A DNA stretch of 64,000 bases from assembly GCA_965205425.1 (NCBI GenBank), contig CBDBGZ010000005.1:160001-224000 (forward strand). The letters run 5' to 3'. The position numbers were made by a program, and so were the translations under genes. The notes beneath the pieces were generated by a model that was not told the DNA's origin, ran no database searches, and saw only the letters and a list, made by a program, of their open reading frames with translations. Each line of letters starts with the position of its first letter. The stretch's first letter is position 1. Of the stretch, positions 41,911-64,000 are shown piece by piece. This stretch comes from Nitrosopumilus sp. Its GTDB lineage: Archaea; Thermoproteota; Nitrososphaeria; Nitrososphaerales; Nitrosopumilaceae.

Positions 41911-43229
41911 CAGTAGATGGGAAAGTAACTCAAGTTACACATTCTAGAAAATAATTATTTTTGTTATTTCTAAAGTAATGAATAATTATCTTTACAAAGA
42001 AATATTTGAGAATTTCAATTGATATTATTGGTTTGTGATTTTGTACATTAGTTTCTTCTGAGATAATCAAATTAGCAATTATCCATGCATTGTACAAAAT
42101 CAAGGAATAGTAAAAATACAACAATCTTATGGATTGGTTTGAACTGGTGGTTTTTGGTCTGAACCTTCCCACACATGCATAACCTGTTTCAATCCCCCAA
42201 CGTTTCTTGTAATCAGTTGGAATGTCCTGTATATTTTCAGATATTTCTTTTGGTGAAACGTTTGTTGCAAACACAGCATACTGATCAATAATATCTGATT
42301 TTTTTCTTGCATTTTTGTTTGGTAGAATAACTAGATTAAATGATTCTACATGTCCTGATGATGATTTTATCGTGTATGGCGAGATTGATTTTCTATCTCC
42401 ATTAACGTATTGTAAAATGGCATCTTTGATTCGAGAATTCTTTTTTGCAGGCATTAGAAATTTTAAATTCTTTTGTTTTATTTCTGAAATTGTTCCAGCT
42501 GTGAAAAACTCCCTATCCACTAGCAATAGTTTAATCTTGATTCCATTATTGATGCCATCAGAGAGTAATTTACGCACAAAATCGGCATTTGATTTGTTGT
42601 CATACAAAGGATAACAACCTAATTGAGCCCTGATTCTTTTTTCAACGCACTGCATGGTGCAGTAACTCTCAAAATGAGTAGTACTGTTTTTTGATTTTGA
42701 TTTTATTAAAGAATGGTTTGGCAATTTGTCATATCTTGGGATTAGATGTTTGTCAATTGCCACAGTAACTGGTTGCTCCAATACTCCCAATTCTTGTAAT
42801 TTTGATATGGTACTATCCAGTGAACGATGTAATTGAATTTGCATTGTTTTTTGTGATATTTTTGATATGATTTTTCTCAACCATGAAACCAGTTGGAGAA
42901 GCATTATCTGATTCCATTGCCAGTCTCTTCAATCCAGATTCAGAATATGAATTTCCAAGACACAATGACATGATAGAATTATGTGCATCTGCATTGTGGA
43001 ACCGTGAGTTATTTTTACTAGAGCATGGAAACAATAAGATATTGTACATTATTTTAGCGACAATATCAAATGCTTTTGATAGTACTACACCTTGGTGTGT
43101 CATGGTATCAAATGAAGTACAATGCATATTTGATGGAGTGACATACTTTCATCAAGCTTTTTCTATCTGAATAATTTGAGAAAATGATCGTTATTTTTTG
43201 ATCCGAATTGAGCACTTTCCTATCTACTG
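41911..43229 (-). mobile_element. ISH3-family element, copy 2 (1319 bp)
   Basis: TIRs CAGTAGAT(G/A)GGAAAGT; 5-bp target duplication ATCTT. Confidence 0.92.
41930..43127 (-). CDS. ISH3-family transposase split over two frames
   Basis: Same two-ORF layout as copies 1 and 3. Confidence 0.8.
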
Positions 43230-47135: not shown

Positions 47136-47256
47136 GTTTAGAGATGTTAAATTGGGCATAAATATACGATTCTCAAAAATAGAAAAATTCCTCAAATTAT
47201 TGATAAATGAGAAGAATTTAGGTTGAAATTCAGTCTTAATCATCAAATGAAATTAT

Positions 47257-47457
47257 CCATGTGAATTGTTTTTATACATTTCCTCTCTTTCCATACATCA
47301 GGGCATGGCTTTCGCTAGAGAATGGTTTCAATCAAAAGATGGCAGACATGTATCCATACGAGACTATTCTCTCAATGCTATCTTCATCCTAGTTAGGATT
47401 ATTCGCAGTTATCAGACGAGGCCTTGTCCCTCAAGCATTTTAACGCGACTTGCAGTC
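47257..47457 (-). ncRNA. candidate bridge RNA / seekRNA region
   Basis: Two stem-closed domains with 6-7-nt matches to reconstructed target and donor. Confidence 0.5.
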
Positions 47458-48450
47458 CTAACTATAATTTTGCACAAATTCTCTCCTCTCCTTTAGCATC
47501 CAATAAATTACTCGCAGAATCTTTGATGCGCCAGCAACTGCATCTTTGGATGAACCTCTCTTCTTTTTAATGCGATTATAAAATTTGGTAATGTCGCTGT
47601 TCTTGGTATGTATTGCATGGGTGTGTATGCATTCTGTTAGAACCCATCTCAATGTCATGCTTCCTCTCTTTGTAATTCTTCCATGATGTATTGTATCTGC
47701 AGAATTTCTCACCGATGGAACAATCCCTGCATATGCACATAACTTGCGAGAATTTGAAAATCTACTAATCTCTGCAATTTCTGAGAATATGCTCAATGCA
47801 GTGTATGGTCCAACTCCAGGTATTGATGTCAAAATACACACATCAGGATTATCATTTACCATGCGACGTATCATGGAATCTATTTTTGCAACCTCCTTTT
47901 TGTGAAATTTTATGCTTTGTAGGTACGAATCTATTCTATAACTCTCCAATTTTCCAAGTGCACGTATGTGTTCTGAGGAAAATGGTGTTGCTTTGATATG
48001 GATTCCCTCCTGTAGTGTAATACCATGTATGGAATTCTTCATCTTTACAATAATGCGCACAATCTTGTGTCGATGTCTTACAAGCTGTCTGTATTGCACA
48101 ATTGTGTGATCTGGCACAAATGATTCTGCAATGTATCCTCCTCGTAGCAAATTTGCAAGATGGTACGCATCAATTTTATCAGTCTTTTTGAGTGATGATG
48201 CTATTATCTTTGTGTTGTATGGATTAGATAGTATAACATCAAGATGTAATTTGTCTGTCATGTGTCTATAAAGGCCATACCAGACAGATGATGACTCTAA
48301 AACATATTTTGCGTTCTTTGGAATTTTGGATGTAATTTTGCTAATAGCAGAAAAATCACTGGAAATCTTTTTGTTAAATAATAATTTGCCAATCTCATCT
48401 ACTGCTGCCACCTGTACAGAGTTCTTGTGAACATCCAATCCTACAAACAT
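47458..48450 (-). CDS. IS110-family DEDD recombinase
   Basis: MFVGLDVHK, VLES, KTDKID, SIPGVG, YAGIVPSVRNS. Confidence 0.95.
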   Translation of the reverse strand: MFVGLDVHKNSVQVAAVDEIGKLLFNKKISSDFSAISKITSKIPKNAKYVLESSSVWYGLYRHMTDKLHLDVILSNPYNTKIIASSLKKTDKIDAYHLANLLRGGYIAESFVPDHTIVQYRQLVRHRHKIVRIIVKMKNSIHGITLQEGIHIKATPFSSEHIRALGKLESYRIDSYLQSIKFHKKEVAKIDSMIRRMVNDNPDVCILTSIPGVGPYTALSIFSEIAEISRFSNSRKLCAYAGIVPSVRNSADTIHHGRITKRGSMTLRWVLTECIHTHAIHTKNSDITKFYNRIKKKRGSSKDAVAGASKILRVIYWMLKERREFVQNYS

Positions 48451-48752
48451 CAAATATTTTTTTTCAGGAAGGGTAGTGTGTTTGTTTGCATTTCTTACTT
48501 TCTTGATACGAATGCAAGTACCATCTAATTTCCTAGCTGATTTTGGCACATATGGTTATAGTTATTACAAAATAACAATTCATTATATTCTGATCAAGAA
48601 AAATCTCTATATCTTACAAATTCACATCCAAAGTAAAATTTTGGGCCACAGATAAAATTGGTAATCAATGTCGAATTGCGTTAGGCGATTACCAAAATCC
48701 AGCTATTCCATGGCAATATTGATGCTTTGATTATTCTTTTAAAATAAAAAAA

Positions 48753-50163
48753 GTAACTGTCTAGAGTTTTGAAGTACTTTCTTTAATATTTTTTATCTAT
48801 ATCTTTTCTGATCAGTGACAAATTACAATATACAATTGTCAGTATATGATGAGCTGGAATATTATCGTAACAGATGTCACTCGTTGGAGCAAGAAAACCG
48901 TCAGTTACGCAAAGATATTGAATCACTACACAGAGAAATTGCAGAACTAAAACAAACAGTGTCTACACTTGTTGCAAGAAATATCAAAGCAAAACCAAAC
49001 CAGACTGAAACTGCAAAAAAGAAGAAAACATCAAGACATCCTAGAAAAAGCAGAAGCAGACGGGCACACATTGATGATGCCATTACAGTTGACCAAAAAG
49101 AGTGCAACACATGTGGCAAATCACTCTCAGAACCAACTGATTCATACACCAGAATAGTAGAAGACATCATTCCTGCAAAAGCAGTTGTGACAAAATATAC
49201 GATAGTTAGACGATACTGCACAAACTGCAAAAAACAAATCTCGGGTAACATTCACACTGTACTGTCAAATGAAAGGTTTGGAATTAGGCTCATGGTGCTA
49301 ATCACATCACTAAAAACTATCGGATTATCGTATGGTAAAATATCTCATCTTTTGCAGATGCTCTTCTCACTGCACATTACAGAATCTGCAATTAATCATG
49401 CAGTATCAATAGTATCAAAAGCATTTGGGAGCAGATATGATACAATGATTGTAGAGTTAAAAGAAGATCTAAACATACATGGTGATGAGACAAGTTGGAG
49501 GATAGATGGCCAGAACCACTGGTTGTGGGCATTTGTGAGTAAATGGACTGTAATTTACGAGATTGACAAATCACGTTCAATGGATGTTCCCAAGAGAATT
49601 CTCAAGGAGTATAATGGCAACATTACAAGTGATTCGTACCCTGCATGGAACCATGTTGGAACAACTCACCAGAAATGTCACATCCATTATCTCAGAGAGG
49701 TTAATGATACCATTAATCACAAGAATCCCGGACCAGAATTTGCACCATTTGCCAAGAATCTCAAGAAAATAATTTATGACTCTCATGGTGTGGCAAAAAT
49801 AAAATCAGAATCAGAAAGAATCCATGCAAAAAAGAATCTTGAAAGGAGAATTAATCACATCATATCAAAAAAATACACAGAGAAAAACTGTATCAGGTTT
49901 GTAAAAAGATTGAAACGTGAGAGAAAAATGCTTTTTACATTCCTAATTACTGGAACTGATTCACACAATAACACAGCAGAGAGGGCAATCAGACCAAATG
50001 TGATAATTCGTAAAATTACAAACGGTCATAGAACCATTCATGGTGCCGATTCTCATAAGATACTGATGAGTATAAAGGAGACATGCAGATTACGAGGATT
50101 AAACTTTCATGATTATTCTTTAGAATATCTTGGAGATTTTACTTCAAAACTCTAGACAGTTAC
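48753..50163 (+). mobile_element. IS66-family single-ORF element (1411 bp)
   Basis: Perfect 24-bp TIR GTAACTGTCTAGAGTTTTGAAGTA; 8-bp target duplication TAAAAAAA. Confidence 0.95.
48815..50155 (+). CDS. IS66-family transposase
   Basis: Coiled coil, Zn finger, HGDETSW, HQKCHIHYLRE, NNTAERAIR. Confidence 0.95.
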   Translation: MTNYNIQLSVYDELEYYRNRCHSLEQENRQLRKDIESLHREIAELKQTVSTLVARNIKAKPNQTETAKKKKTSRHPRKSRSRRAHIDDAITVDQKECNTCGKSLSEPTDSYTRIVEDIIPAKAVVTKYTIVRRYCTNCKKQISGNIHTVLSNERFGIRLMVLITSLKTIGLSYGKISHLLQMLFSLHITESAINHAVSIVSKAFGSRYDTMIVELKEDLNIHGDETSWRIDGQNHWLWAFVSKWTVIYEIDKSRSMDVPKRILKEYNGNITSDSYPAWNHVGTTHQKCHIHYLREVNDTINHKNPGPEFAPFAKNLKKIIYDSHGVAKIKSESERIHAKKNLERRINHIISKKYTEKNCIRFVKRLKRERKMLFTFLITGTDSHNNTAERAIRPNVIIRKITNGHRTIHGADSHKILMSIKETCRLRGLNFHDYSLEYLGDFTSKL

Positions 50164-50272
50164 TAAAAAAAGTGTTTTAAAATTGATTCAAGTAATTTAA
50201 AAAAAACCCATTGAGCCTATCACTGGTAATTCAATGGAAAGTTTTAGGTAGTATCCTATTTCTGATATATCA

Positions 50273-51175
50273 TTGAAAGCAATTTTTGTATTGATAATTG
50301 TAGCTGGAATATTTGGATATGCCTGGTATGCTGATTTACTTCCATTTGGGTTTGAAAAATCTTCAACTGGTTTATCTCCTTCAATAGAAAAAATACAACA
50401 AATTTCTAACGTTGTCACTTCAGAGGAACACCAAATCATTTACTATTCATTTGAGGATGTACGCGATGTTCCAGATGAACAAATTCCTGTTAATGCATTA
50501 AAAAAAGCAATTGATTCGTGGGAAAAATCAAATCCTAATTTAGAATTTATACAATCTGAAAATTCTAACATTGAAATTAAATGGCAAAAATATGCTTCAT
50601 CTACTCATACTGGTTTAGCAAAATGTAATTCTGTTCTCTTTGGAATTCTAAGTCATTGTGTATTAGAAATTTCTATTGGTGCAGAAGATTGTAATTCTGA
50701 TTTTGTTCAAAATGATGAAAACATGGTGGCAAATATTTTGATGCATGAAATTGGTCATGCATTGGGTCTAGGTCATACTAGTGAAGAAAATCATTTAATG
50801 TATTCTACAGAGTCTCCTGAAATACAATATGATACTCATGGATATCATATTCCAGTTAGATTTGAAGAACTCTACGTTGGTCAAAATTTGTTATTGTTTA
50901 ATGAAAAAGAATTAAAATCTCAAATAGAATTACTGGATACTAAAATTTCTAGAGAAGAATCCCAATATGACGAATATTACAAACAATACGAATACTATGA
51001 AGAAAAAACTCTTTCTCCAAAAGAATATGAAAAAGCTGAAAAAGCATTTACAATATTAACTTCCCAGGGAGAAAAAATCAATGCGTTGATTACAGAACAA
51101 AATGAACTAATTGATCAAATAAATGAAATTGTAAATCAGTTAGGTTGTAATCCTAATTTTGATGTTACTTCTTAA
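50273..51175 (+). CDS. matrixin-family (M10) metalloprotease with coiled-coil tail
   Basis: N-terminal TM, HEIGHALGLGH, Met-turn LMY. Confidence 0.9.
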   Translation: MKAIFVLIIVAGIFGYAWYADLLPFGFEKSSTGLSPSIEKIQQISNVVTSEEHQIIYYSFEDVRDVPDEQIPVNALKKAIDSWEKSNPNLEFIQSENSNIEIKWQKYASSTHTGLAKCNSVLFGILSHCVLEISIGAEDCNSDFVQNDENMVANILMHEIGHALGLGHTSEENHLMYSTESPEIQYDTHGYHIPVRFEELYVGQNLLLFNEKELKSQIELLDTKISREESQYDEYYKQYEYYEEKTLSPKEYEKAEKAFTILTSQGEKINALITEQNELIDQINEIVNQLGCNPNFDVTS

Positions 51176-51249
51176 CCAAATAACAGAACTAATCCTACAA
51201 TTAATGCTGATACTGAAATTCCCATCCACACATAAAATTTTGTCATCAT
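51172..51249 (-). CDS. 25-aa hydrophobic micropeptide
   Basis: MMTKFYVWMGISVSALIVGLVLLFG*. Confidence 0.45.
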   Translation of the reverse strand: MMTKFYVWMGISVSALIVGLVLLFG

Positions 51250-51292
51250 CGTAAATTGTTGATTTTCTCTGAAATTAATAGTTTAAAATTGA

Positions 51293-51375
51293 GAAAGCAA
51301 GCAAGTTTGATATCTGTTATCATCGGCCCTTTGGGGGTTACAGTTAGATATCAAACAAGCAATCATCTTGCTTTC
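51293..51375. repeat. long imperfect hairpin
   Basis: GAAAGCAAG/CTTGCTTTC enclosing GTTTGATATCT/AGATATCAAAC. Confidence 0.75.
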
Positions 51376-51581
51376 AATATTTGTATTGATTAGTATTTTC
51401 AAAAATTCTTAAAATAAAACATGTCTTGAAATGTGATCAAAAAGGGTTGAAAAAATGATCTATTTCTGATTATTTTAAAATCTGAGCCTAGTGATGAACA
51501 AAATCACTCATCTAACAATTTTGTTCATTATGGACACACATTTTCTTTTAGACTAATCTGTTAACTCATAATAGAGTCATT

Positions 51582-51645
51582 TGTTTGACGGCGTCATACA
51601 TTTGCCTTATCTGACCATGCCTTAGAATTCGTTTGCCGTCAAACA
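51582..51645. repeat. inverted repeat (11-bp stem)
   Basis: TGTTTGACGGC/GCCGTCAAACA. Confidence 0.75.
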
Positions 51646-51723
51646 CTCTTTCTTTAAAGAAACATTGTGGTTCTATGTCTTTAAAAGAAAAATAATTTTA
51701 TTCTCATACATTTCAGTCCCTTT

Positions 51724-52260
51724 ATGGGTGAAAACATTGTTTTGCAATGGAATCCAGATTTTACTCTAAAATGGTCTGATTTTCAAGCCGAATCTAACCC
51801 TGCTGTATATGAAGACTCACACAGTGTCATAAAATATCGATTCACATGGACTGTAAATTCTGACAAAATAGATGCTGAAATTGTTTTCTTGATTGAAAAC
51901 ATATGCATATTTGTAGAATTTCATCCGTTACTTTCTTGGGTTAGATTATCTGATGCAGATATGCAGTTACTCCACCATGAACAAGGAACTTTTGATTTGG
52001 CTGAATCTGTAAAACGTGAAAATATCAAAAAATTGCAAGATATTTTTTACAACAAACATTTCTCTACACGTGGTCAAAATGAAGAGCAACGAAAACAATT
52101 TGCAAAAGAAGATTCTGGAAAAATGATAAATTTGGAAGTTGAAAAATTACAACAATTGTTTGATGAAAAATGTCTAAAATACAAAGATGATACAAATCAT
52201 GGTCAAAATTCACAGGCACAATCAAACTATGATCTAATTTTTAAACAATTAAAAATATAA
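51724..52260 (+). CDS. DUF922-like predicted Zn-protease-fold protein
   Basis: LKWSDFQ, LLHHEQGTFDLAE (HEQxHFD-like, second His substituted). Confidence 0.7.
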   Translation: MGENIVLQWNPDFTLKWSDFQAESNPAVYEDSHSVIKYRFTWTVNSDKIDAEIVFLIENICIFVEFHPLLSWVRLSDADMQLLHHEQGTFDLAESVKRENIKKLQDIFYNKHFSTRGQNEEQRKQFAKEDSGKMINLEVEKLQQLFDEKCLKYKDDTNHGQNSQAQSNYDLIFKQLKI

Positions 52261-52314
52261 TTTGTCTTGCAGTGTAATCCCATTTGTTATATCCTAATTC
52301 TAAAATATTATTTT

Positions 52315-52458
52315 ATGGAAACTGCAAAGTTGTCGAAATTTAAATGGCATGAATTATCTGAACATAACTCTGGCCATACTCCTAGTGAATGGGGGTTGCA
52401 AAAGAAAAAATCAAATCCTAAAACTTTTGTATCTTACACTGTATCGTGGGATGATTAG
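52315..52458 (+). CDS. small hypothetical protein
   Basis: METAKLSKFKWHELSEH...; 47 aa. Confidence 0.45.
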   Translation: METAKLSKFKWHELSEHNSGHTPSEWGLQKKKSNPKTFVSYTVSWDD

Positions 52459-52721
52459 GATCTATTTTCTATAATTTTATTTTCAGGAACTGAATTAATA
52501 TAATTCACAAGACTTCTATAATATTTTAAATGGAAATCTAAATCTCTGATTTCTGTTTGTTTCAATTCTTCAAGTTCTGGACCAAAATCTGTTTTATTTG
52601 TTTGAATGTGATTTAATGTAGTTTCATTTACTTCAATCATGTGAAATAAACTGTGAAGCACTTCCCCTTTTGTTAGAGTTCTATTGCATGATTTTTCTAA
52701 TATTTTTTCAACCCAATCCAT
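52455..52721 (-). CDS. hypothetical protein
   Basis: 88-aa ORF. Confidence 0.7.
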   Translation of the reverse strand: MDWVEKILEKSCNRTLTKGEVLHSLFHMIEVNETTLNHIQTNKTDFGPELEELKQTEIRDLDFHLKYYRSLVNYINSVPENKIIENRS

Positions 52722-52808
52722 ATTATTTCTTAAAATTATTCTTATATCCCCTCCAGAATTTGAATAATTCTGACTTTAGCTCTATTTTTTTAGTCTAGTT
52801 TAAAATAA

Positions 52809-52940
52809 TTATTTTTTTCCAGCTTTCTTTTTCCTATTCATGATTTCTTTGTTACGCTCATTATCTGAATGAACTTCTACATGATCATACAAATCTTCTT
52901 TTGAATCAAATAGTTGCTCACAATAGTAGCACTGATGCAT
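52809..52940 (-). CDS. 43-aa C2H2 zinc-finger microprotein
   Basis: MHQCYYCEQLFDSKEDLYDHVEVH... Confidence 0.75.
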   Translation of the reverse strand: MHQCYYCEQLFDSKEDLYDHVEVHSDNERNKEIMNRKKKAGKK

Positions 52941-53051
52941 TGCTAAATTACAGTCATCTTAGATAAATTGCTTTTCTTAAAAAACCAGTAGTTTGTTCCT
53001 AACTTGATATAATAAAAATTGAAAATAATGTGGATGATAATCTGGACTAGA

Positions 53052-53294
53052 TTATCTTCCATTTTGTTCTCTAACTTTTTGTGCTAAGTCGCCAAAAGGA
53101 TCCTCGTGCCATTTTTCCCTATTCAAATCCGCTCCCAAAGCTCCTGTTTTTGGTAAAAGTCCTTCTTCTGCTGCGTGTGATAAAACAGCATCTTCTGGAA
53201 TGTAATTTTTTTGGTTTTCAGTACCATATGCAATTACTGCACCCATTGCAATAACGCCTACGGCAATTCCAATGTAAATCATCGCGTTTGACAT
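53052..53294 (-). CDS. single-TM hypothetical protein
   Basis: 80 aa, N-terminal TM. Confidence 0.7.
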   Translation of the reverse strand: MSNAMIYIGIAVGVIAMGAVIAYGTENQKNYIPEDAVLSHAAEEGLLPKTGALGADLNREKWHEDPFGDLAQKVREQNGR

Positions 53295-53357
53295 GAAATA
53301 ATATATTGTTTTTTTCTATTAATCATGTAAGACTTCAGTGCAATGCAGTGAAATTAT

Positions 53358-53675
53358 CTAATGTGTTTCTATCTTAATTTCTCCATTACAAATAGGAATA
53401 TTCCCAGTTTGATTTTTAAAATCTTCAATTAATTGCAGTTTCATCTCTTTTGGATTATCTGAAAATACTCTCTGATAGAATGATGTTTTTTGTTTACATT
53501 CATCGCCTTCAAATTCTGTATCTACATATTTTGCGAATTTTGCTTCCAGGCTATCTGTTTCTCCAATGAATATTGCATCTCGATTTCTATTATACAAGAC
53601 ATATACTCCTGGGTTTGGTTTCACATATTGGGAGCTATCTGTCCATACTCTCATTTTATCATCTAATAATTCCAT
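53358..53675 (-). CDS. small GIY-YIG-like protein
   Basis: PGVYVLY...IFIGET...CN. Confidence 0.65.
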   Translation of the reverse strand: MELLDDKMRVWTDSSQYVKPNPGVYVLYNRNRDAIFIGETDSLEAKFAKYVDTEFEGDECKQKTSFYQRVFSDNPKEMKLQLIEDFKNQTGNIPICNGEIKIETH

Positions 53676-53774
53676 GATCTAACATAGTAATACTAGATAT
53701 TAAACTAGATTACAAAAATTATGATACTCCAATAACCCTTATGCTTTTAATACTAAGTAAAAAAAGATGTAATC

Positions 53775-55454
53775 CTGTCTTTACTAGAAAAATTCCCGGA
53801 TCATTTTACTCCTAGAGGAATTCAAAAAGAGATCATTTCTCAAATAGAAGAGAAATTTAAATCTGGATTCAAGAAAATTATTTTATGTGCACCTACGGGT
53901 GTTGGGAAATCTCTTGTAGGTGCCACTATCTCAAATTACTTTGATAGCTCATTCACAGTAACTGCATCAAAACATCTTCAAGATCAATATATCAAAGATA
54001 TCCCCTTTCTGAAACCTGTCAAAGGTAAGCAAAATTTTTCCTGTCTGAAACTTATGGAATCTGAAAAAGTTGATAATGATAGAAGGGCTATGAGATGGGG
54101 TTTAACTTGTGATAAAGGTGAATGTCAAGAAAGAGTCTCAAAAAATGGTAAAGAAGTCTTTGACGTCTGTAAATTCAAGCCTACACTAAAACAAGTAGAA
54201 GATAACACTACTGATGCCAAATCATGTCATTACTATATGCAAAAATATGATGCCCTAGTTTCCAATCACTCTCTTTGGAATTACCATGCATTTTTTACTA
54301 TTATGAAATTCAACAAAAAACTCTTTGAGGACTATCTTGATAGAAAAGTAACTGTTTTTGATGAAGCTCATAAAATTGAAGATCAAATTATTCAGTTTGT
54401 TGGTTTTGATATTTTTGCAGGTCAAGTTGATGAATGTAATCTAAATTCAGAAAAATATGATTTTACCGATTTGGATTCTATGATTCAGTTAACTGATGAT
54501 ATGGCATTTTCATATGCCAAAAAAATTAAAGATATCAAAGAAAGTGCATCTTTTCAAAATGATCCTGATTATGAATTACTTACAGGATTAGAAAGAAGAC
54601 ATGATAGATCTGCACAGGCTAAAATTGATATTATGACTGACAAGGATAATTTTATTGTAAATGATCCTGTTAAAGATTTGAATGGAAATTTTAGAACAAT
54701 TTCTGTTAAACCTATTGATGTTTCAAAGTTTGCAAATTCTTTTTTTGAAACAGAATATCAATTATTCATGTCTGCTACAATTGACAAAAATAGTTTTTGT
54801 GAAAATATGGGATTGGTAAAAGATGATGTTGCATTTGTTGATACACCAAAATCTCCTTTTCCAATTGAACATAGAAGTATAGATCTTCTAAACATTAAGA
54901 GACTTAGCTATGGCTCTACTGAAGAAGATGAACTTGAAGTCATTAAAACAATTGATAGAATAATGGATGAACATTCAAACGAGCGTGGGTTAATACTTAC
55001 CTCATCGATTCCTAGATGTCAAAAGATTATCCGCTATCTTTCTCCAAAAAATACTCAAAGAATTAGACTATGTCATAGTAAAAACAAGGATGACAAAACT
55101 CAGGATGAGGTCATTTCTGAACATGCAACTGATCCTACCGGAGTTCTATTGTCTTCTTCTTTGTGGGAAGGTGTTGATTTGAAAGATGATTTATCTAGGT
55201 TTCAAATTATTGCTAAAGTCCCATACCCTAATTATACTGAAAAGAGAACAAGAGCAAAAATGAATAAATTCCCTTTATGGTATACTTCACAAACGTTAAC
55301 AAAAATTCTACAAGGATTTGGTCGTTCGATTCGAGGTGATGATGATTGGGCAAAAACATATGTTTTGGATACAGCCGTAAACAATGTCTTCTTTAAAGGT
55401 CAACCAATGATTCCAAAAGCATACTATGATGTTTTAGGTATGGATAGTATTTGA
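53775..55454 (+). CDS. DinG/Rad3-type ATP-dependent helicase (inferred CTG start)
   Basis: In-frame APTGVGKS upstream of ATG 54054; DEAH, MSAT, WEGVD, QGFGRSIR. Confidence 0.88.
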   Translation: MSLLEKFPDHFTPRGIQKEIISQIEEKFKSGFKKIILCAPTGVGKSLVGATISNYFDSSFTVTASKHLQDQYIKDIPFLKPVKGKQNFSCLKLMESEKVDNDRRAMRWGLTCDKGECQERVSKNGKEVFDVCKFKPTLKQVEDNTTDAKSCHYYMQKYDALVSNHSLWNYHAFFTIMKFNKKLFEDYLDRKVTVFDEAHKIEDQIIQFVGFDIFAGQVDECNLNSEKYDFTDLDSMIQLTDDMAFSYAKKIKDIKESASFQNDPDYELLTGLERRHDRSAQAKIDIMTDKDNFIVNDPVKDLNGNFRTISVKPIDVSKFANSFFETEYQLFMSATIDKNSFCENMGLVKDDVAFVDTPKSPFPIEHRSIDLLNIKRLSYGSTEEDELEVIKTIDRIMDEHSNERGLILTSSIPRCQKIIRYLSPKNTQRIRLCHSKNKDDKTQDEVISEHATDPTGVLLSSSLWEGVDLKDDLSRFQIIAKVPYPNYTEKRTRAKMNKFPLWYTSQTLTKILQGFGRSIRGDDDWAKTYVLDTAVNNVFFKGQPMIPKAYYDVLGMDSI

Positions 55455-55462
55455 TTAAAAAA

Positions 55463-55663
55463 TTAAAATTTTCTTTCTGAACAATTGCATTTTACATAAA
55501 CCATTTTGAATTCTCCATCTGATTTTACGTTATGTGACATTGGTTTTCTGCATTGTTGGCATTCATTAAATCCAAAATATTCTTCAACTTTAATGATTTT
55601 GTAATCCCATGATTTTCTCTCTTCGTTCCAAAATACCGAATTTATTTCAGATGGTCCATCCAT
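55463..55663 (-). CDS. small Cys-rich hypothetical protein
   Basis: CQQC and CNC. Confidence 0.7.
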   Translation of the reverse strand: MDGPSEINSVFWNEERKSWDYKIIKVEEYFGFNECQQCRKPMSHNVKSDGEFKMVYVKCNCSERKF

Positions 55664-55697
55664 ATATTCAATAAATTTAGATTCATTAATTAATTTT

Positions 55698-55910
55698 CTA
55701 TTTATTCAGATTTTTAAAATCTAAACATTTTTGATTAAATTCGTTAAGATATTGTTTTGCGTTAATTTGGGAATCTATAATGTATAATTCACATGTTTCA
55801 GAGTCTATCATCTGATTTGAATTGTTACTGTTGGCCATTACTTGGATTGCAAGAATGGTGACTAGTGCTATGATGACAATTATTGCAAATTTCCTAGAGT
55901 AAATATCCAT
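55698..55910 (-). CDS. small membrane-anchored protein
   Basis: N-terminal TM, two Cys. Confidence 0.65.
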   Translation of the reverse strand: MDIYSRKFAIIVIIALVTILAIQVMANSNNSNQMIDSETCELYIIDSQINAKQYLNEFNQKCLDFKNLNK

Positions 55911-55955
55911 TAATTTTCCTTGATAATTTCTAACTTAAGTTTAATCCTTGGAATT

Positions 55956-56171
55956 TTATTTTCTATTTGTTAAAATATCTATGATTTCAGTATTGGTTTT
56001 AATCCAAATTTTTAGATATGGTAAAAACAAATCTTCCAATTCATCCATTGGTAAATCCTTGTATCTTGGGTCTGCACGAAGATCATCGAATTGTTCATGT
56101 AATTGTTCCAAATTCTCTTGTTGTTGTTTATTATCACTCTGTAATTTTTCAACTGCTTCCAAAATACCCAT
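55956..56171 (-). CDS. hypothetical protein
   Basis: 71-aa helical ORF. Confidence 0.6.
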   Translation of the reverse strand: MGILEAVEKLQSDNKQQQENLEQLHEQFDDLRADPRYKDLPMDELEDLFLPYLKIWIKTNTEIIDILTNRK

Positions 56172-56188
56172 ATTTTTTTAATGATATA

Positions 56189-57263
56189 TAGCGACGATCA
56201 AAAGTTCGCAAACATCTTTGCAGGATTTCTAAAGATATAATTTGCAACATCAAGCTTGAACTTTGTCACTCTGAAATATTTTGACACTGCCTTGTTCATT
56301 ATTGTAAACATTGCATAATACTCTGAAACCAACAATGCATATTTGCTTATCTTCCAGCACTGCTCTATCATGTTCTTCAAATATGGTGATCCCTTTGGCA
56401 ACCAGATTAGTTTGACATCTCTATTGTTTGCAAGGTATTCCTTTACCTTCTTTGATTTGTGAACTGATGCTCTATCTAAAATGATTGCAATCTTGCCGTA
56501 TTTCTGATGCAATTCCTTTAGGTACTCTACAAATGTCACAGCGTTGAATTTGTCATAAACTCTGAATAGTTGATTGCCATTTTCTGTAATTGTACCATAC
56601 ACTGCCAGACTCTCATGTCGTCCTGTATATGGAAGAAATATTCTCTTGGCAACTGGTGACCAGTACTTTTTTCCTGTTTTTGTATCCCTTACAAAGAATG
56701 CTTCATCTGCCATTGCAATGGTAAAACCATCTTCTTTTAGGCGTGAAATTCTCTTTTTGGTGCGTTGCTGCCAGCTTCTCACAGCAGATATACTTGCATG
56801 GTTGATGTGATATTTTTGTGCAGTTTTTGCAGACATGCCGTATTGGTGCATTATCTTTCTGATGTGGGTTATGTGAAATTTTACTCCAGTGGAATAAAAG
56901 ATACTTTGTTGCAACATTATGGGGGTAAACAAAGTTAGCATTGCTTTTGACATGATAGCATCCATTCGAGTCTGGGAGATTGTTCTTGGCCTGCCACTTC
57001 TTGGGAGATCGTAGAGGCCATCTATCTCAAAACGACTCGTCCATTTTCTCACCCAGCTTGTGCAGTGTCTTTGCAGTGTGTTCTAATTCCTTACCATCTT
57101 TTAGAATCATCAACACTGCAAGCATCATTACTGCAACCTTGGAGTTTTTTTTGTATGCTGCTTTCAAGGGATTCTAACTTGTTCATCAAATTTTACCATA
57201 CATAGTGATCAAAAAGTTTTTTGTTTTGGAATTATTTAGTTCACGAACTTTATCTTTTCGCTA
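56189..57263 (-). mobile_element. IS630-family element A (degenerate)
   Basis: TA-flanked ends TAGCGACGATCAAAAGTTCG / CGAACTTTATCTTTTCGCTA. Confidence 0.85.
56198..57199 (-). pseudogene. IS630 transposase with frameshifted N-terminus
   Basis: ADEAFF, LDRASVH, LPKGSPYL..IE; N-terminal part lies in other frames. Confidence 0.8.
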
Positions 57264-57365
57264 TACTACTCTAAATTCCTCCTTTTTTGATAAAAGCCAT
57301 GTTTTGAATTATCATAATGTCATTTTTATCGATTTTGCTTATTTTATGCGTATAATGTTGCTGAA

Positions 57366-57608
57366 TCATATTATTTTTTCAATCTCCTCGATTTTGTCAT
57401 GGTTTAACGAATATTGAAATCCATATCCTGTAGGATGCCTCAAAACCAAATTCATTTTCACTAATTTCTTCATTGATTTTTCTACATCTCCTTTGACATG
57501 AGATGGAAATCCTCTTTTCAAATCATCTAATCCAGGATGTTTTCCACCACAAACATTATGCAGTAACATTTTCTTGAGAATCTTTTTTGATACTGAATCT
57601 AATGTCAT
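57366..57608 (-). CDS. small archaeal winged-helix-like protein
   Basis: GGKH...KRGFPSH.KG...PTGYG..YSLN. Confidence 0.7.
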   Translation of the reverse strand: MTLDSVSKKILKKMLLHNVCGGKHPGLDDLKRGFPSHVKGDVEKSMKKLVKMNLVLRHPTGYGFQYSLNHDKIEEIEKII

Positions 57609-57710
57609 TATGTAATTAAATACATAACAACTATATTAGTATTATGAAACTAATTACATAATATTAAGGAACTAAGTAAATAATAAATAGATGGAAATGT
57701 TACCAGTGAC

Positions 57711-58064
57711 ATGATGTCTGAAACAGTATCTAAAACAATCGCTGAGTCTGATGGGAAAGTTCTGGAACTTGGACCATTAGAAGATACATTTCCATGTTCC
57801 AGATCAAAGATTCTGGACTTTCTAATTGTGTTTGATGATTATGACTATTCGATTTCAGATATTGCGAGACATTCTGGAATATCATTCAAAACTGCTCTGA
57901 ATGAAGTACGAACACTTGAATCAGAATCTCTCATAACAAGAACCAGGAGATCAGGTAAGGCAATAATGTACAAACTTAATTTGGATTCAAAACAGGTCCA
58001 ACTAACCAGTCAACTTGCAAAAGAGATTGCAGTTAGACGGATAAAAGAATCAAAGAAAAAATAA
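57711..58064 (+). CDS. winged-helix DNA-binding protein
   Basis: SISDIARHSGISFKT...TRRSGKAIMYKLN. Confidence 0.8.
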   Translation: MMSETVSKTIAESDGKVLELGPLEDTFPCSRSKILDFLIVFDDYDYSISDIARHSGISFKTALNEVRTLESESLITRTRRSGKAIMYKLNLDSKQVQLTSQLAKEIAVRRIKESKKK

Positions 58065-58215
58065 TCTAAGGTTTATTTTTAATTAATGCTTTGATTTGAA
58101 AAATACTAATCAGGAATTTGTACTATATGAAAATTATGTCGCTTATCCATTTGTATCCTCTTTGGCCCAATTGGGGTTATCATCTCTGATCGTTTTTGTG
58201 GCAATTCTGTATGTA

Positions 58216-59361
58216 TAGTTTAGGCATATAAATTTTGAATAAACTGTCAAGTATTTTAACCCAAAAGATCTAGATCGTAGAATCAATTCATGAAACCATG
58301 TCAAAGAGTACAAGACAATCCAAGGTTTCCTCTGGGAATCAATTCATGAAAGGTACAAGCATTAATTTTTTAAGAAAAACATGCAAGAATGAAAAAAATG
58401 CAAAAGCAAAGATAAGACTAAAGGCTGCAATACTAAGAAAACAAAATATTCCGTATTCTGTGATATGTGCAAGTCTGGATGTCATACCATCAACTCTGTC
58501 CTACTGGCTAAATCGAATGGATGAAGAGGGAATATCTGCATCACGCCGCAAGAAATATTCTGGTTCTAGATGTTTTCTAAATGAAAAACAACTAGTATCA
58601 TTAAGAAATGATCTGATTTCAGGTCCAGAAAAGTTTGGATTTAACCAATTCATGTGGAGTACAAGAATGGTAATTACACATGTGAATAAAAAATACAACA
58701 CCCTATACTCTGCAAGAGGAATGCGTGAATTGCTGCACAGAATTGGATTCTCATCAAAAAAACCACGTCCCACACATCACAAATCAGCCTCAAAAGAGGA
58801 ACAAACCCGTTTTAAAAAAACGCAAAAAGGAGTATCAAAAAATATTCCAAATTGGGATACACCACACTATGTCTGGATGAGTCAACAAACAAGATAGCAC
58901 CTAACATAAAGCGCGGATGGTATCTTGCAGGCAATAACATTACCACACCAATTAATTACACTCGAGAAAAATTTCAATCATTTGGTGCATTGGGGGATGA
59001 CGGCGTATTTTTTTGTAGGTTCTATGATAAATCAAACACAGACTCATTTCTTGATTTCTTAAAATCCTTGCAGAAACAATTTGGCAAGAAACTGTTATTA
59101 TTTGCAGACAATGCATCATACCACAAAAGTGTCAGAGTAAAAGAATTTCTCAAGGTATCAAAAAGAAATGTAATCATAAGATATTTTCCTGCATACACCC
59201 CAGAACTCAATCCAATTGAGGTACAGTGGAGAGAAGAGAAAAATGGTAATGCCAATACATTCTTTGCAAATGGAACTGAGATGAGAAAACACATGCAGAA
59301 GAGACTAGATAATGGAGACGTTCGAGTTGTGAAATTATTCAAATATTTAATGCCTTAACTA
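58216..59361 (+). mobile_element. IS630-family element B
   Basis: TIRs TAGTT(T/A)AGGCAT..., TA duplication on both sides. Confidence 0.9.
58298..59358 (+). CDS. IS630 transposase, OrfA/OrfB joined by a probable -1 frameshift
   Basis: HTH ORF 58298-58897, DDE ORF (LDES, DNASYH, PELNPIE) in -1 frame; TTTAAAAAAAC at 58811-58821. Confidence 0.88.
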
Positions 59362-59411
59362 TATCAAGCACTTTAGATGTATTTTGCCATCTCAGAAAAC
59401 ATATTCAACTC

Positions 59412-60731
59412 CAGTAGATGGGAAAGTAACTCAATTTAGATCAAAAACTATCAATTATTCAATCAATCTATTCAGATAGAAAAAGCTTGATGTAAGTATG
59501 TCACTCCATCAAATATGCATTGTACTTCATTTGATACCATGACACACCAAGGCGTGATACTATCTAAAGCATTTGATATTGTCGCTAAAATAATGTACAA
59601 TATCTTGTTGTTTCCATGCTCTAGTAAAAATAACTCACGGTTCCATAATGCTGATGCACACAATTCTGTCATGTCATTGTGTTTGGGAAATTCATATTCT
59701 GAATCTGGATTAAAGAGACTGGCAATGGAATCAGATAATGCTTCTCCAACGGGTTTCATGGTTGAGAAAAATCATATCAAAAATATCACAAAAAACAATG
59801 CAAATTCAATTACATCGTTCACTGGATAGTACCATATCAAAATTACAAGAATTGGGAGTATTGGAGCAACCAGTTACTGTAGCAATTGACAAACATCTAA
59901 TCCCAAGATATGACAAATTGCCAAACCATTCTTTAATAAAATCAAAATCAAAAAACAGTACTACTCATTTTGAGAGTTACTGCACCATGCAGTGCGTTGA
60001 AAAAAGAATCAGGGCTCAATTAGGTTGTTATCCTTTGTATGACAACAAATCAAATGCCGGTTTTGTGCGTAAATTACTCTCTGATGGCATCAATAATGGA
60101 ATCAAGATTAAACTATTGCTAGTGGATAGGGAGTTTTTCACAGCTGGAACAATTTCAGAAATAAAACAAAAGAATTTAAAATTTCTAATGCCTGCAAAAA
60201 AGAATTCTCGAATCAAAGATGCAATTGTACAATACGTTAATGGAGATAGAAAGTCAATCTCGCCATACACAATAAAATCATCATCAGGACATGTAGAATC
60301 ATTTAATCTAGTTATTCTGCCAAACAAAAATGCAAGAAAAAAATCAGATATTATTGATCAGTATGTTGTGTTTGCAACAAACGTTTCACCAAAAGAAATA
60401 TCATATAACATACAAAACATTCCAACTGATTACAAGAAACGTTGGGGGATTGAAACAGGCTATGCATGTGTGGGAAGGTTCAGACCAAAAACCACCAGTT
60501 CAAACCAATCCATAAGATTGTTGTATTTTTACTATTCCTTGATTTTGTACAATGCATGGATAATTGCTAATTTGATTATCTCAGAAGAAACCAATGTACA
60601 AAATCACAAACCAATAATATCAATTGAAATTCTCAAATATTTCTTTGTAAAGATAATTATTCATTACCTTAGAAATAACAAAAATAATTATTTCCTAGAA
60701 TGTGTAATTTGATGTACTTTCCCATCTACTG
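59412..60731 (+). mobile_element. ISH3-family element, copy 3 (1320 bp)
   Basis: TIR CAGTAGATGGGAAAGTA; flanks AACTC/AAATC are not a perfect duplication. Confidence 0.92.
59515..60712 (+). CDS. ISH3-family transposase split over two frames
   Basis: ORFs 59515-59829 and 59738-60712. Confidence 0.8.
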
Positions 60732-60757
60732 AAATCTAATATTGCATATATTAATTC

Positions 60758-60943
60758 ATGAAACAAGATTCATGTAGACGTTGTGGAAACGAATTAGAAG
60801 TAAACAAAAAATGTGATGTTTGTAATGAGGTAAATCAATTTTATTGTCATGAATGTGGATTTGTTTCTGAAGAACAAATTCATTTTCAATGTCTGATGAT
60901 TAGTATGGATCATGCATTATTATCAAATCAAGTTCAGAAATAA
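60758..60943 (+). CDS. small multi-CxxC zinc-finger protein
   Basis: CRRC, CDVC, CHEC. Confidence 0.8.
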   Translation: MKQDSCRRCGNELEVNKKCDVCNEVNQFYCHECGFVSEEQIHFQCLMISMDHALLSNQVQK

Positions 60944-60972
60944 TTTACAGAATATTTTTAGAATCAATCTTT

Positions 60973-61323
60973 TTATTCATTCCATATTGATTGAGTTTTT
61001 AGCCATGCGATAAGATCTTGGTATAATTTGCTTTTTTGCATGTTTAGTACTCCGATTTCTAAATTTGTTGATGATTTTACTGTCTTTGTATAATTTTCAT
61101 ATGTTGCAAAAATTATTTTATCTAAAAACATCTCATTTTGCATCTCTTTTTTTGCTAATTCTTCAGATTCAGCCATAGCAAAACTGGCAAACAATACTCC
61201 ATCAACCCAGTAAGCGTTCGCAGCCTCTAGAGATGACATCATACCAATAAGATCATCCAAACTAAGTTTTATCATGTCTCTGACATAGATTCTGTCATAT
61301 GGTTTATGGATAAATTCTGTCAT
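60973..61323 (-). CDS. hypothetical protein
   Basis: 116-aa ORF. Confidence 0.8.
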   Translation of the reverse strand: MTEFIHKPYDRIYVRDMIKLSLDDLIGMMSSLEAANAYWVDGVLFASFAMAESEELAKKEMQNEMFLDKIIFATYENYTKTVKSSTNLEIGVLNMQKSKLYQDLIAWLKTQSIWNE

Positions 61324-61392
61324 GAGATGTCATTTTTGTTTGGCTTAAAGAATATTTGGAAATTTTATAACTAGTTTCACTAAATTGATTTC

Positions 61393-61620
61393 ATGAACAA
61401 CACTGATGAATCATCTAAACATGAGATGTTTGTAACTGAATTCCCAAAACAAGGGTTTGGAATAGTAGATTATCTTCAAGGAAGAGTTCATTTTTCTCTA
61501 ATGGATCAGATGAAACTAATGCATAAATCTGGAATGAGTCAAGAGGAAATAAAAAAAACAATAATTGCTAGTGTAACTGAGATTGTTGAAAATTTTGAAC
61601 CTGAATCAAAAAGTCCTTGA
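61393..61620 (+). CDS. hypothetical protein
   Basis: 75-aa ORF. Confidence 0.65.
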   Translation: MNNTDESSKHEMFVTEFPKQGFGIVDYLQGRVHFSLMDQMKLMHKSGMSQEEIKKTIIASVTEIVENFEPESKSP

Positions 61621-61871
61621 TTCCATTTTTGAAGATTCTGCCATGATTATTTTATGACATTGGCAATAACAATTAGTATGTGGCATGTCGTTATCCATTC
61701 TATACTTGCATTCTTTGGTATAGCGAAAAGACAAAGTTCGTGAACTAAATAATTTCAAAAAACTAGGAATCAGTTGATCTTGCCTATAGGTAAATACGAA
61801 TAAACAAATTGAAACACCTAAAAAATAACTCACGAACTTATGCTTCTCGCTATATGTTCTATCATTGCCAT
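61606..61871 (-). pseudogene. 43-aa Cys/His microprotein gene interrupted by MITE
   Basis: Removing the MITE gives MAMIEHTKECKYRMDNDMPHTNCYCQCHKIIMAESSKMESRTF*. Confidence 0.6.
61721..61852. mobile_element. IS630-related MITE, copy 3 (diverged, 132 bp)
   Basis: TAGCGAAAAGACAAAGTTCGTGAACTA...TTCTCGCTA, TA-flanked. Confidence 0.88.
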
Positions 61872-61932
61872 TTAGATGATAATCCATTTGTTGTTTCAAA
61901 TTTATAATCTTCTTAAAATATTGATTTTTGTT

Positions 61933-62325
61933 TTATTGTTTAGTAGGATCCTTGCTCAAAATATTCAACACATGTTCAATAATCTGTTTTTGACCTCCTT
62001 CATGTACATCTGTTCTTACTACATCTGAACCCATACTAACAAAAATTAAATTTTTATCACCTAGTGGAAATGTCATTCTTGTAATTTTTTCAAATGTTGC
62101 AACTGCATACAATCCATGACCTATTTTTGGAGCCAATTCATTCCTACCTTTCCATGCTACTGATGCTCTCTTCAATGATGCAGCTGTTTCTTCTGTCGAT
62201 AGATAATTTGTAATCCCTTCTCTGTGACTTGTGGCTAAAATATTGCCCTCACTATCTGTAACTAGACTATGTCTAATATTTACATCCGAATTCATTATTC
62301 TTTTCAAGAGATTTTCAAAATTCAT
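61933..62325 (-). CDS. roadblock/DUF6659-like protein
   Basis: IRHSLVTDSEGNILA...FEKITRMTFPL. Confidence 0.75.
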   Translation of the reverse strand: MNFENLLKRIMNSDVNIRHSLVTDSEGNILATSHREGITNYLSTEETAASLKRASVAWKGRNELAPKIGHGLYAVATFEKITRMTFPLGDKNLIFVSMGSDVVRTDVHEGGQKQIIEHVLNILSKDPTKQ

Positions 62326-62384
62326 CTCAATTTGTTACGTCAAAATAATACTTAAGATCTACCTCTAAAACCATACGTAGGTTC

Positions 62385-62543
62385 TTATTCTGATGATAAT
62401 TTACATTCAAAATATTCTGTTATCGTATTGTTGAAATCTTCTAGTTGTTGTTGATCTGCAAATCCTGATTTTTCAAGCAATTTCCACGATTTTTCTATTT
62501 CTTCTTTTAACACATACAAAGTTCGCTTATCATCACAGTGCAT
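62385..62543 (-). CDS. 52-aa hypothetical protein
   Basis: MHCDDKRTLYVLKEEIEKSWKLLE... Confidence 0.55.
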   Translation of the reverse strand: MHCDDKRTLYVLKEEIEKSWKLLEKSGFADQQQLEDFNNTITEYFECKLSSE

Positions 62544-62581
62544 ATTGTTATTATTTCAAAATAGAATTTAATCTTTGTAGT

Positions 62582-63640: not shown

Positions 63641-64000
63641 AAATATGAGTTTATGAATATTGTTAATTAAAAAAAATTAATGCCTTAGATATTTCTAAAG
63701 CTGGTCGTCGGTGTTACCTGATTTGTTCATTTTACACCAACAATTTGGGCTACAAATTGAATTAAAACTTGACATTTTAATCATCAGATACTAGCCAAGA
63801 AAGGCCAATTGCTTCTTCCCAATTTGATTGATAATTGTTATCTTGCATATTTCACTCTGGTAAAATTTCTATTTAATATCGATGAACGATTTGTTAGTAT
63901 GATTTCTCAGTATCAATTAGTAGTGATTCTTTATATTAAATTTGAAGTGTACATAGTACCAGACCATACCTGGTGACGATTCAAATCCTAGATTCATTTT

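What the first reader, a model, noticed from the sequence alone, without database searches (positions are those of the whole stretch)
47253..48559. Archaeal IS110 recombinase with a bridge-RNA-like 3' non-coding end that matches its own target and donor
Seen: an intact DEDD recombinase (D in GLDVH, E in VLES, KTDKID, and the C-terminal Ser in VRNS). TTAT occurs on both sides and there is a ~200-nt non-coding stretch after the stop. On the gene strand the reconstructed empty target is AATAACT-ATAA-TTTCAT and the circle junction is CACATGG-ATAA-CCATATG. The non-coding strand has one domain closed by AATGCT/AGCATT (47374-47439). It contains ATAACT (47407-12, equal to the left target flank), an inner hairpin ATCCTA/TAGGAT, then ATGAAG (47382-87, antisense to the right flank with one G-T wobble). 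A second domain closed by AGAGAAT/ATTCTCT (47317-47372) contains ATGGATA (47351-57, equal to left donor plus core). Established: IS110/IS1111 elements use a non-coding bridge/seek RNA with target- and donor-binding loops, located 3' of the gene in the IS1111 group. Inference: this is an RNA-guided recombinase from an ammonia-oxidising archaeon. Caveats: matches are only 6-7 nt in AT-rich DNA, I see no clear right-donor guide, and the ends come from one copy.
Basis: partly seen in the sequence, partly recalled or inferred. Interest (0 to 1): 0.8.

Follow-up and report, generated by a model that had tools for sequence, protein, structure and literature searches.

The report
Archaeal IS1111-type hybrid with guide RNA
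This jumping gene in an ammonia-oxidising archaeon carries a two-loop guide RNA of a kind known since 2024, and this copy is a hybrid, most likely left behind after a sister element whose own guide spells out its relatives' left ends inserted into one of them and recombined with it.

Summary
The general inference holds; most details do not. The element (47254-48564, minus strand) is an intact IS110-family recombinase with a conserved two-loop 3' RNA. Across 49 distinct guide pairs in relatives, and 19 further pairs tested out of sample, two variable loop segments track each element's own flanks (0 of 20,000 permutations). The core is TA. The right-target guide is TTAAAATGCT (47434-43), before the first hairpin. 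ATAACT is the element's own outer left end, not target. New twist: this copy is a recombinant. Its 5' part comes from a sister element P, whose guides spell TAACYA|TA|TGTGAA, the left end of sibling IS110s; all 13 P copies seen sit there. Its last 66 codons, RNA and right end come from the host C. The scan noted the guide RNA before on other copies in this genome; its excerpts do not mention sibling targeting or the hybrid. No expression or activity data.

The parts
47254..48564 (-). Whole element A (hybrid IS110/IS1111-type), core TA at both ends
   Evidence: Ends from 12 left and 11 right ends in the genome and empty sites
48559..48564 (-). Outer left-end unit TAACTA: outer core TA plus remnant of the host (C-type) left end
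   Evidence: Native C-type elements begin TAACTATATGTGAA; empty sites lack this unit
48547..48558 (-). Inner left end from element P: core TA, right donor ACCAT, subterminal repeat ATGTG
   Evidence: Same sequence as P copies; 7-nt spacing from core to repeat
47458..48549 (-). DEDD recombinase, 363 aa from GTG 48549 (conserved domain starts at ATG 48450); D39, E85, D124, D127, S283
47657..47667 (-). Crossover between P-derived 5' part and C-derived 3' part (within KRGS, residues 294-297)
   Evidence: 351 of 354 informative sites follow P before, 111 of 129 follow C after; the same branch point appears as a loose end in three public runs
47300..47462 (-). Predicted bridge/seek RNA (exact 5' and 3' ends unknown)
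   Evidence: RNAalifold consensus of 27 sequences; pair counts
47392..47462 (-). Target-binding domain: stems 47456-62/47392-98 and 47445-48/47403-06, hairpin 47418-32
47434..47443 (-). Right-target guide TTAAAATGCT (pairs with top strand)
   Evidence: Covaries with right flanks; fits this copy's flank at 5 of 6 with a 2-nt slip
47410..47416 (-). Left-target guide plus core TCTGA-TA (pairs with bottom strand)
   Evidence: Covaries with left flanks; matches TCTGA in the true thrS target with a 1-nt offset
47378..47381 (-). Right-donor guide ATAG, antisense to CTAT of the outer left end
   Evidence: ATAGC goes with TAACTAT, ATGGT with TAACCAT, ACGAC with TAGTCGT
47360..47373 (-). Second hairpin, capping the donor-binding loop
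47351..47357 (-). Left-donor guide plus core ATGGA-TA
   Evidence: Identical to the element's own right end in 47 of 49 and 18 of 19 guide pairs
47382..47389 (-).
47269..47276 (-). TATA-like box 21 nt before the right core; candidate circle-junction promoter
   Evidence: 47 of 49 elements against 1-3 of 49 in shifted controls; function inferred
47254..47263 (-). Right end: subterminal repeat CACAT, 3 nt GGA, core TA

Best explanation
An IS1111-type, RNA-guided IS110-family insertion sequence, and this copy is a P/C recombinant. Shown from sequence: a conserved two-loop RNA fold downstream of the recombinase; in each loop a top-strand guide precedes a hairpin and a bottom-strand guide plus the TA core follows it; loop 1 tracks insertion sites, loop 2 tracks the element's ends; the copy switches ancestry at 47667-47657 and carries a doubled left end. 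Inferred from bacterial IS110/IS1111 systems: the RNA is transcribed and bound by the recombinase, the element forms a circle joining CACATGGA-TA-ACTAT, the right-end TATA box then drives expression across the junction, and the circle recombines into matching targets at TA. Inferred history: sister element P (guides GTTTTCACAT and AAACTA-TA) inserted at TAACYA|TA|TGTGAA inside the left end of a C-type element, giving P-C tandems; homologous recombination between the two recombinase genes removed the middle and left TAACTA + P 5' part + C 3' part, RNA and right end. The C-type RNA still fits the outer end, so the hybrid can plausibly move as a unit. Later recombination between copies swapped flanks.
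For: Fold: 95% of cells paired, 17 of 27 pairs with double changes, 0 of 500 shuffles as high; RNAalifold finds the same stems. Guides: right guide vs right flank 4.62 of 6 against 2.85 permuted (n=49), left guide vs left flank 3.41 of 5 against 1.47 (n=35), both 0 of 20,000; with one family per scaffold cluster 4.41 vs 2.60 (n=22) and 3.79 vs 1.51 (n=18); within this element's own scaffold 4.70 vs 3.65 (n=22, 0 of 20,000); out of sample 3.94 vs 2.74 (n=19) and 4.0 vs 1.26 (n=14), both 0 of 20,000. Right-donor guide 4.27 vs 3.27 (n=36). P: 13 of 13 copies in three genomes are followed by TATGTGAATAA and 12 of 12 with a visible left end are preceded by TAAC[CT]A. Mosaic; five own-genome A copies show three different crossovers, and a hybrid in another genome (L046) has a later one. 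Guide order and 7+3 geometry match IS1111 as described in PMC11187229.
Against: No RNA, circle or activity was observed. This copy's own guides fit its present flanks only moderately (5 of 6 with a 2-nt slip; 3 of 5 on the left by eye), and one own-genome copy fits at 3 of 6. The left-guide test within this scaffold is weak (2.73 vs 2.18, 265 of 20,000, n=12). The right guide needs a free register of 0-2 nt (30, 17 and 14 of 83 copies; 22 fit at none). The left-donor test is partly circular because both strings were required to fit AT[AG]G[AG]. Related elements are not independent. No public contig spans the whole copy, so an assembly join across the repeat cannot be excluded for the flank swap. 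P was seen in only three genomes.
Confidence: 0.85

Rival explanations
1. One reading: core ATAA, target AATAACT-ATAA-TTTCAT, guides ATAACT and ATGAAG inside a domain closed by AATGCT/AGCATT.
For: All strings are present; 10 of 12 left ends are preceded by TAAC[CT]; small excess for the segment.
Against: Empty sites place TAACYA inside the element; helices fail; AATGCT occurs in 1 of 22 families of this scaffold and ATGAAG in 21 of 22; flanks come from different sites.
Confidence: 0.03
2. The RNA-guided part is right, but the doubled left end and P-C tandems arise from donor-side half-match or tandem-duplication reactions, not from a target loop programmed against sibling ends.
For: Half-match recombination (10.64898/2026.08.31.748434, abstract) and tandem duplication of IS110 modules (10.64898/2026.08.14.744561, passages) are described; the site used resembles donor sequence.
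Against: P's target loop itself spells both halves of the site (AAACTA-TA; GTTTTCACAT, 7 of 7 then mismatch; 9 of 10 in L059), the insertion point is 6 nt inside the end and not at the host's core, partners are heterologous (57% identical proteins), and no non-P element was found at such a junction.
Confidence: 0.08
3. The hybrids are assembly artefacts from collapsing P and C repeats.
For: Nine contigs, 5% contamination estimate, several contigs end inside these elements; no contig spans the copy.
Against: Hybrids are intact in frame with different crossovers, occur in a second genome (L046), and both branches at 47658 are seen in runs of two studies, with contigs bridging each junction of the window copy.
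Confidence: 0.05
4. The hybrid is real but immobile: each copy formed in place by collapse of a P-C tandem, and near-identical copies reflect gene conversion.
For: Different crossovers at different loci; P's 5' end has only a 5-bp repeat match to the C right end and 13 nt instead of 7 before it.
Against: The window copy, C5:229376 and C4:23660 are 99.7-100% identical over their aligned parts and account for two original sites; the C-type right-donor guide fits the outer unit.
Confidence: 0.35

Closest known systems
IS1111-group elements with a downstream seekRNA (ISEc11, ISKpn4, ISPa11, ISPst6; PMC11187229, parts 1-3 of 9 and passages read)
   Same: DEDD recombinase, non-coding region 3' of the gene, top-strand guide 5' of bottom-strand guide, 7 nt left and 3 nt right of a subterminal repeat, natural reprogramming between relatives.
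   Different: Archaeal host; repeat only 5-8 bp against the usual 11-13; SA instead of SG at the serine loop; TATA-like box in the right end; this copy has a doubled left end and is a hybrid; no experimental data.
IS621 / ISCro4 bridge recombinases (PMC11208160 section 12 and passages; PMC13626964 passages; PDB 8wt6, 9t56)
   Same: Two internal loops, one for target and one for donor, each including a 2-nt core; the serine of VRNS aligns with the serine of YESG in both chains.
   Different: RNA lies 3' of the gene, guide order is reversed, core TA instead of CT; weak protein similarity (E about 3e-8).
IS4321 / IS5075, which target Tn21-family terminal repeats (title seen in reference lists only)
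   Same: An IS1111-type element aimed at the end of another mobile element; family B in this genome does this to an IS66-like element.
   Different: P aims at the left end of its own family, so insertion yields heterologous tandems that can recombine into hybrids.
ISPpu9 with MITEPpu9/ssr9 (PMC12288879, passages) and tandem or expanded IS110 loci (10.64898/2026.08.14.744561, passages)
   Same: Adjacent IS110 modules with nested ends.
   Different: There the partner is a non-autonomous module or a duplicate; the passages seen do not describe a guide programmed against a sibling's end or gene-level hybrids.

Membership tests
IS110 family (DEDD RNA-guided recombinases) | PF01548 plus PF02371, NF033542 above cut-off | tested here: met
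IS110 family (DEDD RNA-guided recombinases) | DEDD tetrad and C-terminal catalytic serine | tested here: met
   D39, E85, D124, D127, S283; serine aligned to IS621/ISCro4 chains
IS110 family (DEDD RNA-guided recombinases) | Insertion at a short core without target duplication | tested here: met
   Empty sites; two of four comparisons are one A short of the related empty site
Bridge/seek RNA | Conserved structured RNA with internal loops | tested here: met
Bridge/seek RNA | Target guides covary with insertion sites | tested here: met
Bridge/seek RNA | Donor guides covary with element ends | tested here: met
   (left-donor test partly circular)
Bridge/seek RNA | RNA expressed, bound by the recombinase and needed for movement | not testable with these tools
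   No RNA run was listed; needs experiment
IS1111 group | Long non-coding region downstream of the gene | tested here: met
   About 200 nt 3'
IS1111 group | Top-strand guide 5' of bottom-strand guide | tested here: met
   order as in PMC11187229
IS1111 group | 7 bp left and 3 bp right beyond the subterminal repeats | tested here: met
   Met in native relatives; this hybrid has 13 on the left because of the extra unit
IS1111 group | Subterminal inverted repeats of 7-17 bp (usually 11-13) | tested here: inconclusive
   5 bp in this hybrid; 7 bp in B and 8 bp in C by eye
IS1111 group | GL-P----S(t)G motif | tested here: inconclusive
   GIVPSVRNSA: serine kept, G replaced by A
IS1111 group | Recombinase falls in the IS1111 clade of ISfinder proteins | not tested
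   No ISfinder set was on hand
IS1111 group | Circular intermediate with junction promoter | not testable with these tools
   Only a conserved TATA-like box before the right core was seen

The most novel reading that the evidence does not exclude
An RNA-guided insertion sequence (P) has been naturally programmed to insert into the donor end of its own relatives. The resulting tandems place P's outward TATA box in front of the host gene and recombine inside the recombinase gene, producing mobile hybrids that pair one element's catalytic core with another's C-terminal RNA-binding helices, guide RNA and ends. This would be a natural route for swapping enzymes and guides in the IS110 family and a form of parasitism within one IS family.
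Probability: 0.6. Interest if true: 0.62.

Novelty: new variant of a known kind. Interest (0 to 1): 0.45.

Why it matters
The guide-RNA mechanism is known, and archaeal members are expected. What this set adds is a large natural reprogramming series in ammonia-oxidising archaea (68 distinct guide pairs with their flanks), which fixes guide positions, the TA core and a 0-2 nt register slip without experiment. It also offers a candidate insertion tool for a group that is hard to manipulate genetically (recalled, not checked). The sibling-targeting element and its hybrids show, if confirmed, which part of the recombinase must travel with a given RNA scaffold, and how IS110 elements exchange modules.

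Tried and rejected
Rfam: no relevant family, one chance U6 hit at E 0.28. Single-sequence folding: not informative. Sequencing runs: no RNA holder listed; four contig sets laid showed no circle or empty-site joint, which is no evidence either way. The idea that each loop matches an integrated junction over its whole length was dropped; what remains is a weak 2-nt post-core match (loop 2 vs right flank 1.02 vs 0.63, 3 of 20,000 in 49 pairs, 161 of 20,000 in 22 clusters; loop 1 vs left end 147 of 20,000), possibly handshake-like. A C/D-box reading of GAUGAAG and UGAG was considered after part 1 of 5 of 10.1101/2024.06.21.599552 and not tested. One parser found only 6 records and was discarded. 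The covariance model hit 3 of 150 other genomes in a phylum sample, all in the same family; it was built from long-form RNAs only and misses the short form seen in L013-L021. The tandem-junction pattern hit 11 of 401 family genomes; 8 single hits have no IS110 nearby. Three viral hits to the doubled left end have no IS110 nearby. Closest plasmid-borne proteins are haloarchaeal IS110s at 32-37%; their RNAs were not examined.

Full report
Observation. The minus strand carries a 363-aa frame, 48549-47458, matching Pfam DEDD_Tnp_IS110 and Transposase_20 and NCBIfam NF033542 above its cut-off. Related elements come from records titled Nitrosopumilus, Cenarchaeum and Nitrososphaera, so an ammonia-oxidising host is a fair inference.

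Ends. The genome holds 12 left and 11 right ends of this sequence and three related element types, here called B, C and P. Ten of 12 left ends are preceded by TAAC[CT], which first looked like a target consensus. Empty sites show otherwise. Copy C9:1144893 reads caacaataa-TA-ACTA-TAACCATATGTG where three empty paralogues read caacaataa-TA-ATTTCAAAG. The window's right flank and the left flank of copy C4:23660 are the two halves of a TTYTGAATAAATTTCA site that is intact upstream of thrS in 10 of 11 relatives examined. The window's left flank belongs with the right flank of copy C5:226927 in all 7 relatives examined. So TAACTA is part of the element, the core is TA (one copy continues GGA-TA-C), and the window's flanks come from two different original sites. 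Native relatives begin TA-NNNNN-ATGTG and end CACAT-NNN-TA, the 7+3 geometry given for IS1111 elements in PMC11187229.

RNA fold. An alignment of 27 long-form 3' regions folds by RNAalifold into two domains, each an internal loop of about 12+12 nt capped by a GAGR/YCUC hairpin. My 27-pair version is paired in 95% of cells, with double changes at 17 pairs, and 0 of 500 shuffles reach this. The tool warns that related sequences can beat shuffles; slid controls fell to 36-40% paired.

Guides. From 118 loci plus the own genome, 96 records parsed, 83 were distinct, and they form 49 distinct guide pairs; truncated or divergent loci did not parse and were left out. The 10 nt before hairpin 1 are antisense to the right flank: 4.62 of 6 matches against 2.85 when flanks are permuted, with the same three registers allowed. 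The 5-6 nt after hairpin 1 equal the left flank: 3.41 of 5 against 1.47 (35 pairs with a left end). Both reach 0 of 20,000, and both hold with one family per scaffold cluster. For hybrid copies the outer TAACYA units were stripped before scoring, a rule set after seeing the data. Within this element's scaffold the right guide still tracks flanks (4.70 vs 3.65, n=22), the left guide weakly (2.73 vs 2.18, 265 of 20,000, n=12). Out of sample, 73 further loci gave 45 parsed records and 19 new guide pairs: 3.94 vs 2.74 and 4.0 vs 1.26 (n=14), 0 of 20,000 each; some of these genomes also supplied the first set. In loop 2 the segment after the hairpin equals the element's right end in 47 of 49 and 18 of 19 pairs, and the segment before it is antisense to the left end (4.27 vs 3.27 of 5, n=36). 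ATGAAG is constant in 37 of 49 pairs and 21 of 22 in this scaffold; an earlier test of that region gave a small excess (3.56 vs 3.35) with inconsistent segment choice. The order top-strand guide, then bottom-strand guide, is the IS1111 order. This copy's guides fit its flanks only moderately (5 of 6 with a 2-nt slip); guides and flanks appear shuffled among copies, or insertion used an RNA in trans (inference).

The hybrid. Against P and C from the same genome, the window copy follows P at 351 of 354 informative sites down to 47667 and C at 111 of 129 from 47657 on. Five A copies show three crossovers and L046 from another genome a later one. P's guides are GTTTTCACAT and AAACTA-TA, which spell TAACYA|TA|TGTGAA, the left end of C- and B-type elements. 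All 13 P RNA copies found (3 in this genome, 10 in loci from two other assemblies) are followed by TATGTGAATAA, and all 12 with a visible left end are preceded by TAAC[CT]A. P-C tandems stand at C9:245989-248658 and C8:46854-49520. Collapse of such a tandem through the shared stretch of the two genes gives exactly the window's structure, including the extra 6 nt. In this genome P and hybrid frames are intact and both full C frames are broken; in one other genome all 8 P frames checked are broken and 2 of 6 C frames are full within the stretch scanned. Both branches at 47658 appear in public runs of two studies, and contigs bridge each junction of the window copy, though none spans it. The tandem junction was found next to IS110 sequence in only 3 of 401 family genomes searched.

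Mechanism. By analogy with IS621 and IS1111 systems, the recombinase binds the RNA, joins the ends at TA into a circle and inserts it where loop 1 pairs. A TATA-like hexamer lies 17-26 nt before the right core in 47 of 49 elements against 1-3 in shifted windows (motif list chosen after viewing the alignment). It would face across the circle junction, and across the P-host junction in tandems. None of this is shown by experiment. Whether the hybrid itself still moves is open.

Known and new. It works like, and by most testable features is, an IS1111-type seek/bridge element; repeat length and the SG motif are atypical and tree placement was not tested. Targeting of other transposons' ends is known (IS4321/IS5075, title only). 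A guide aimed at the family's own left end, with hybrids as the result, was not found in seven paper searches, in passages of the 2026 preprint on expanded IS110 loci, or in the scan's notes. The library lacks most subscription papers, ISfinder was not available, and bioRxiv supplements are closed. Supplements of PMC11208160 hold one Thaumarchaeota-labelled row in a file that was cut when stored, and no 'Nitroso'; those of PMC11187229 hold none; one scanned file of each was not searched. PMC13343696 mentions IS110 once in the passages seen.

Verdict. The sibling-targeting element and the hybrid raise it from a routine new member to a modest new variant. Interest 0.45.

Noticed in passing
G000:C2:53259-54607, C5:1391-2739, C4:944 (family B; L119): Family B (guides TTAAACACAT, TTTTG-TA) inserts at G|TA|YGTGTTTAGG, the terminus of an IS66-like element; 13 uninterrupted termini remain in the genome. 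Left ends C2:53259 and C4:944 flank an 8-bp duplication in another repeat.
   Followed up: partly
window 48753-50162: Intact IS66-family element (446 aa) with GTAACTGTCTAGA inverted repeats, 186 nt from the IS110 left end; another A copy (G000:C9:39378-40689) sits in a related IS66 copy.
   Followed up: partly
window 48567-64000 to G000:C5:226926: The 18-kb segment between the window copy and copy C5:229376-226927 has ends that are adjacent in relatives, as if circularly permuted by recombination between copies.
   Followed up: partly
G000:C5:227051-228197: The second C5 copy is interrupted inside its RNA, just after GATGAAGATA, by about 1.1 kb of other sequence.
   Followed up: no
window 47235-47255 and G000:C4:23660: The reconstituted thrS-upstream target is one A shorter than the site in 10 relatives; a family of 14 copies has right junctions differing by one T. 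Possible small deletions at the right junction or register slip.
   Followed up: partly
G000:C9:86708, C9:484938; L052, L094: Left ends with three units (TAACTA TAACCA TAACCA TATGTG), consistent with a second round of P insertion and collapse.
   Followed up: partly
L013-L018, L021: A shorter form of the RNA (about 165 nt to the right end) with the same two loops and different donor ends; L017 uses TG as core in both loops and both ends. L013 holds two elements tail to tail.
   Followed up: partly
window 41930-42904: ISH3-like DDE transposase frame (NF033541 below cut-off); the genome is rich in many IS types.
   Followed up: no
G000:C4:115730-115933: Divergent RNA and right-end remnant (E 2e-5) with no recombinase match nearby.
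   Followed up: no
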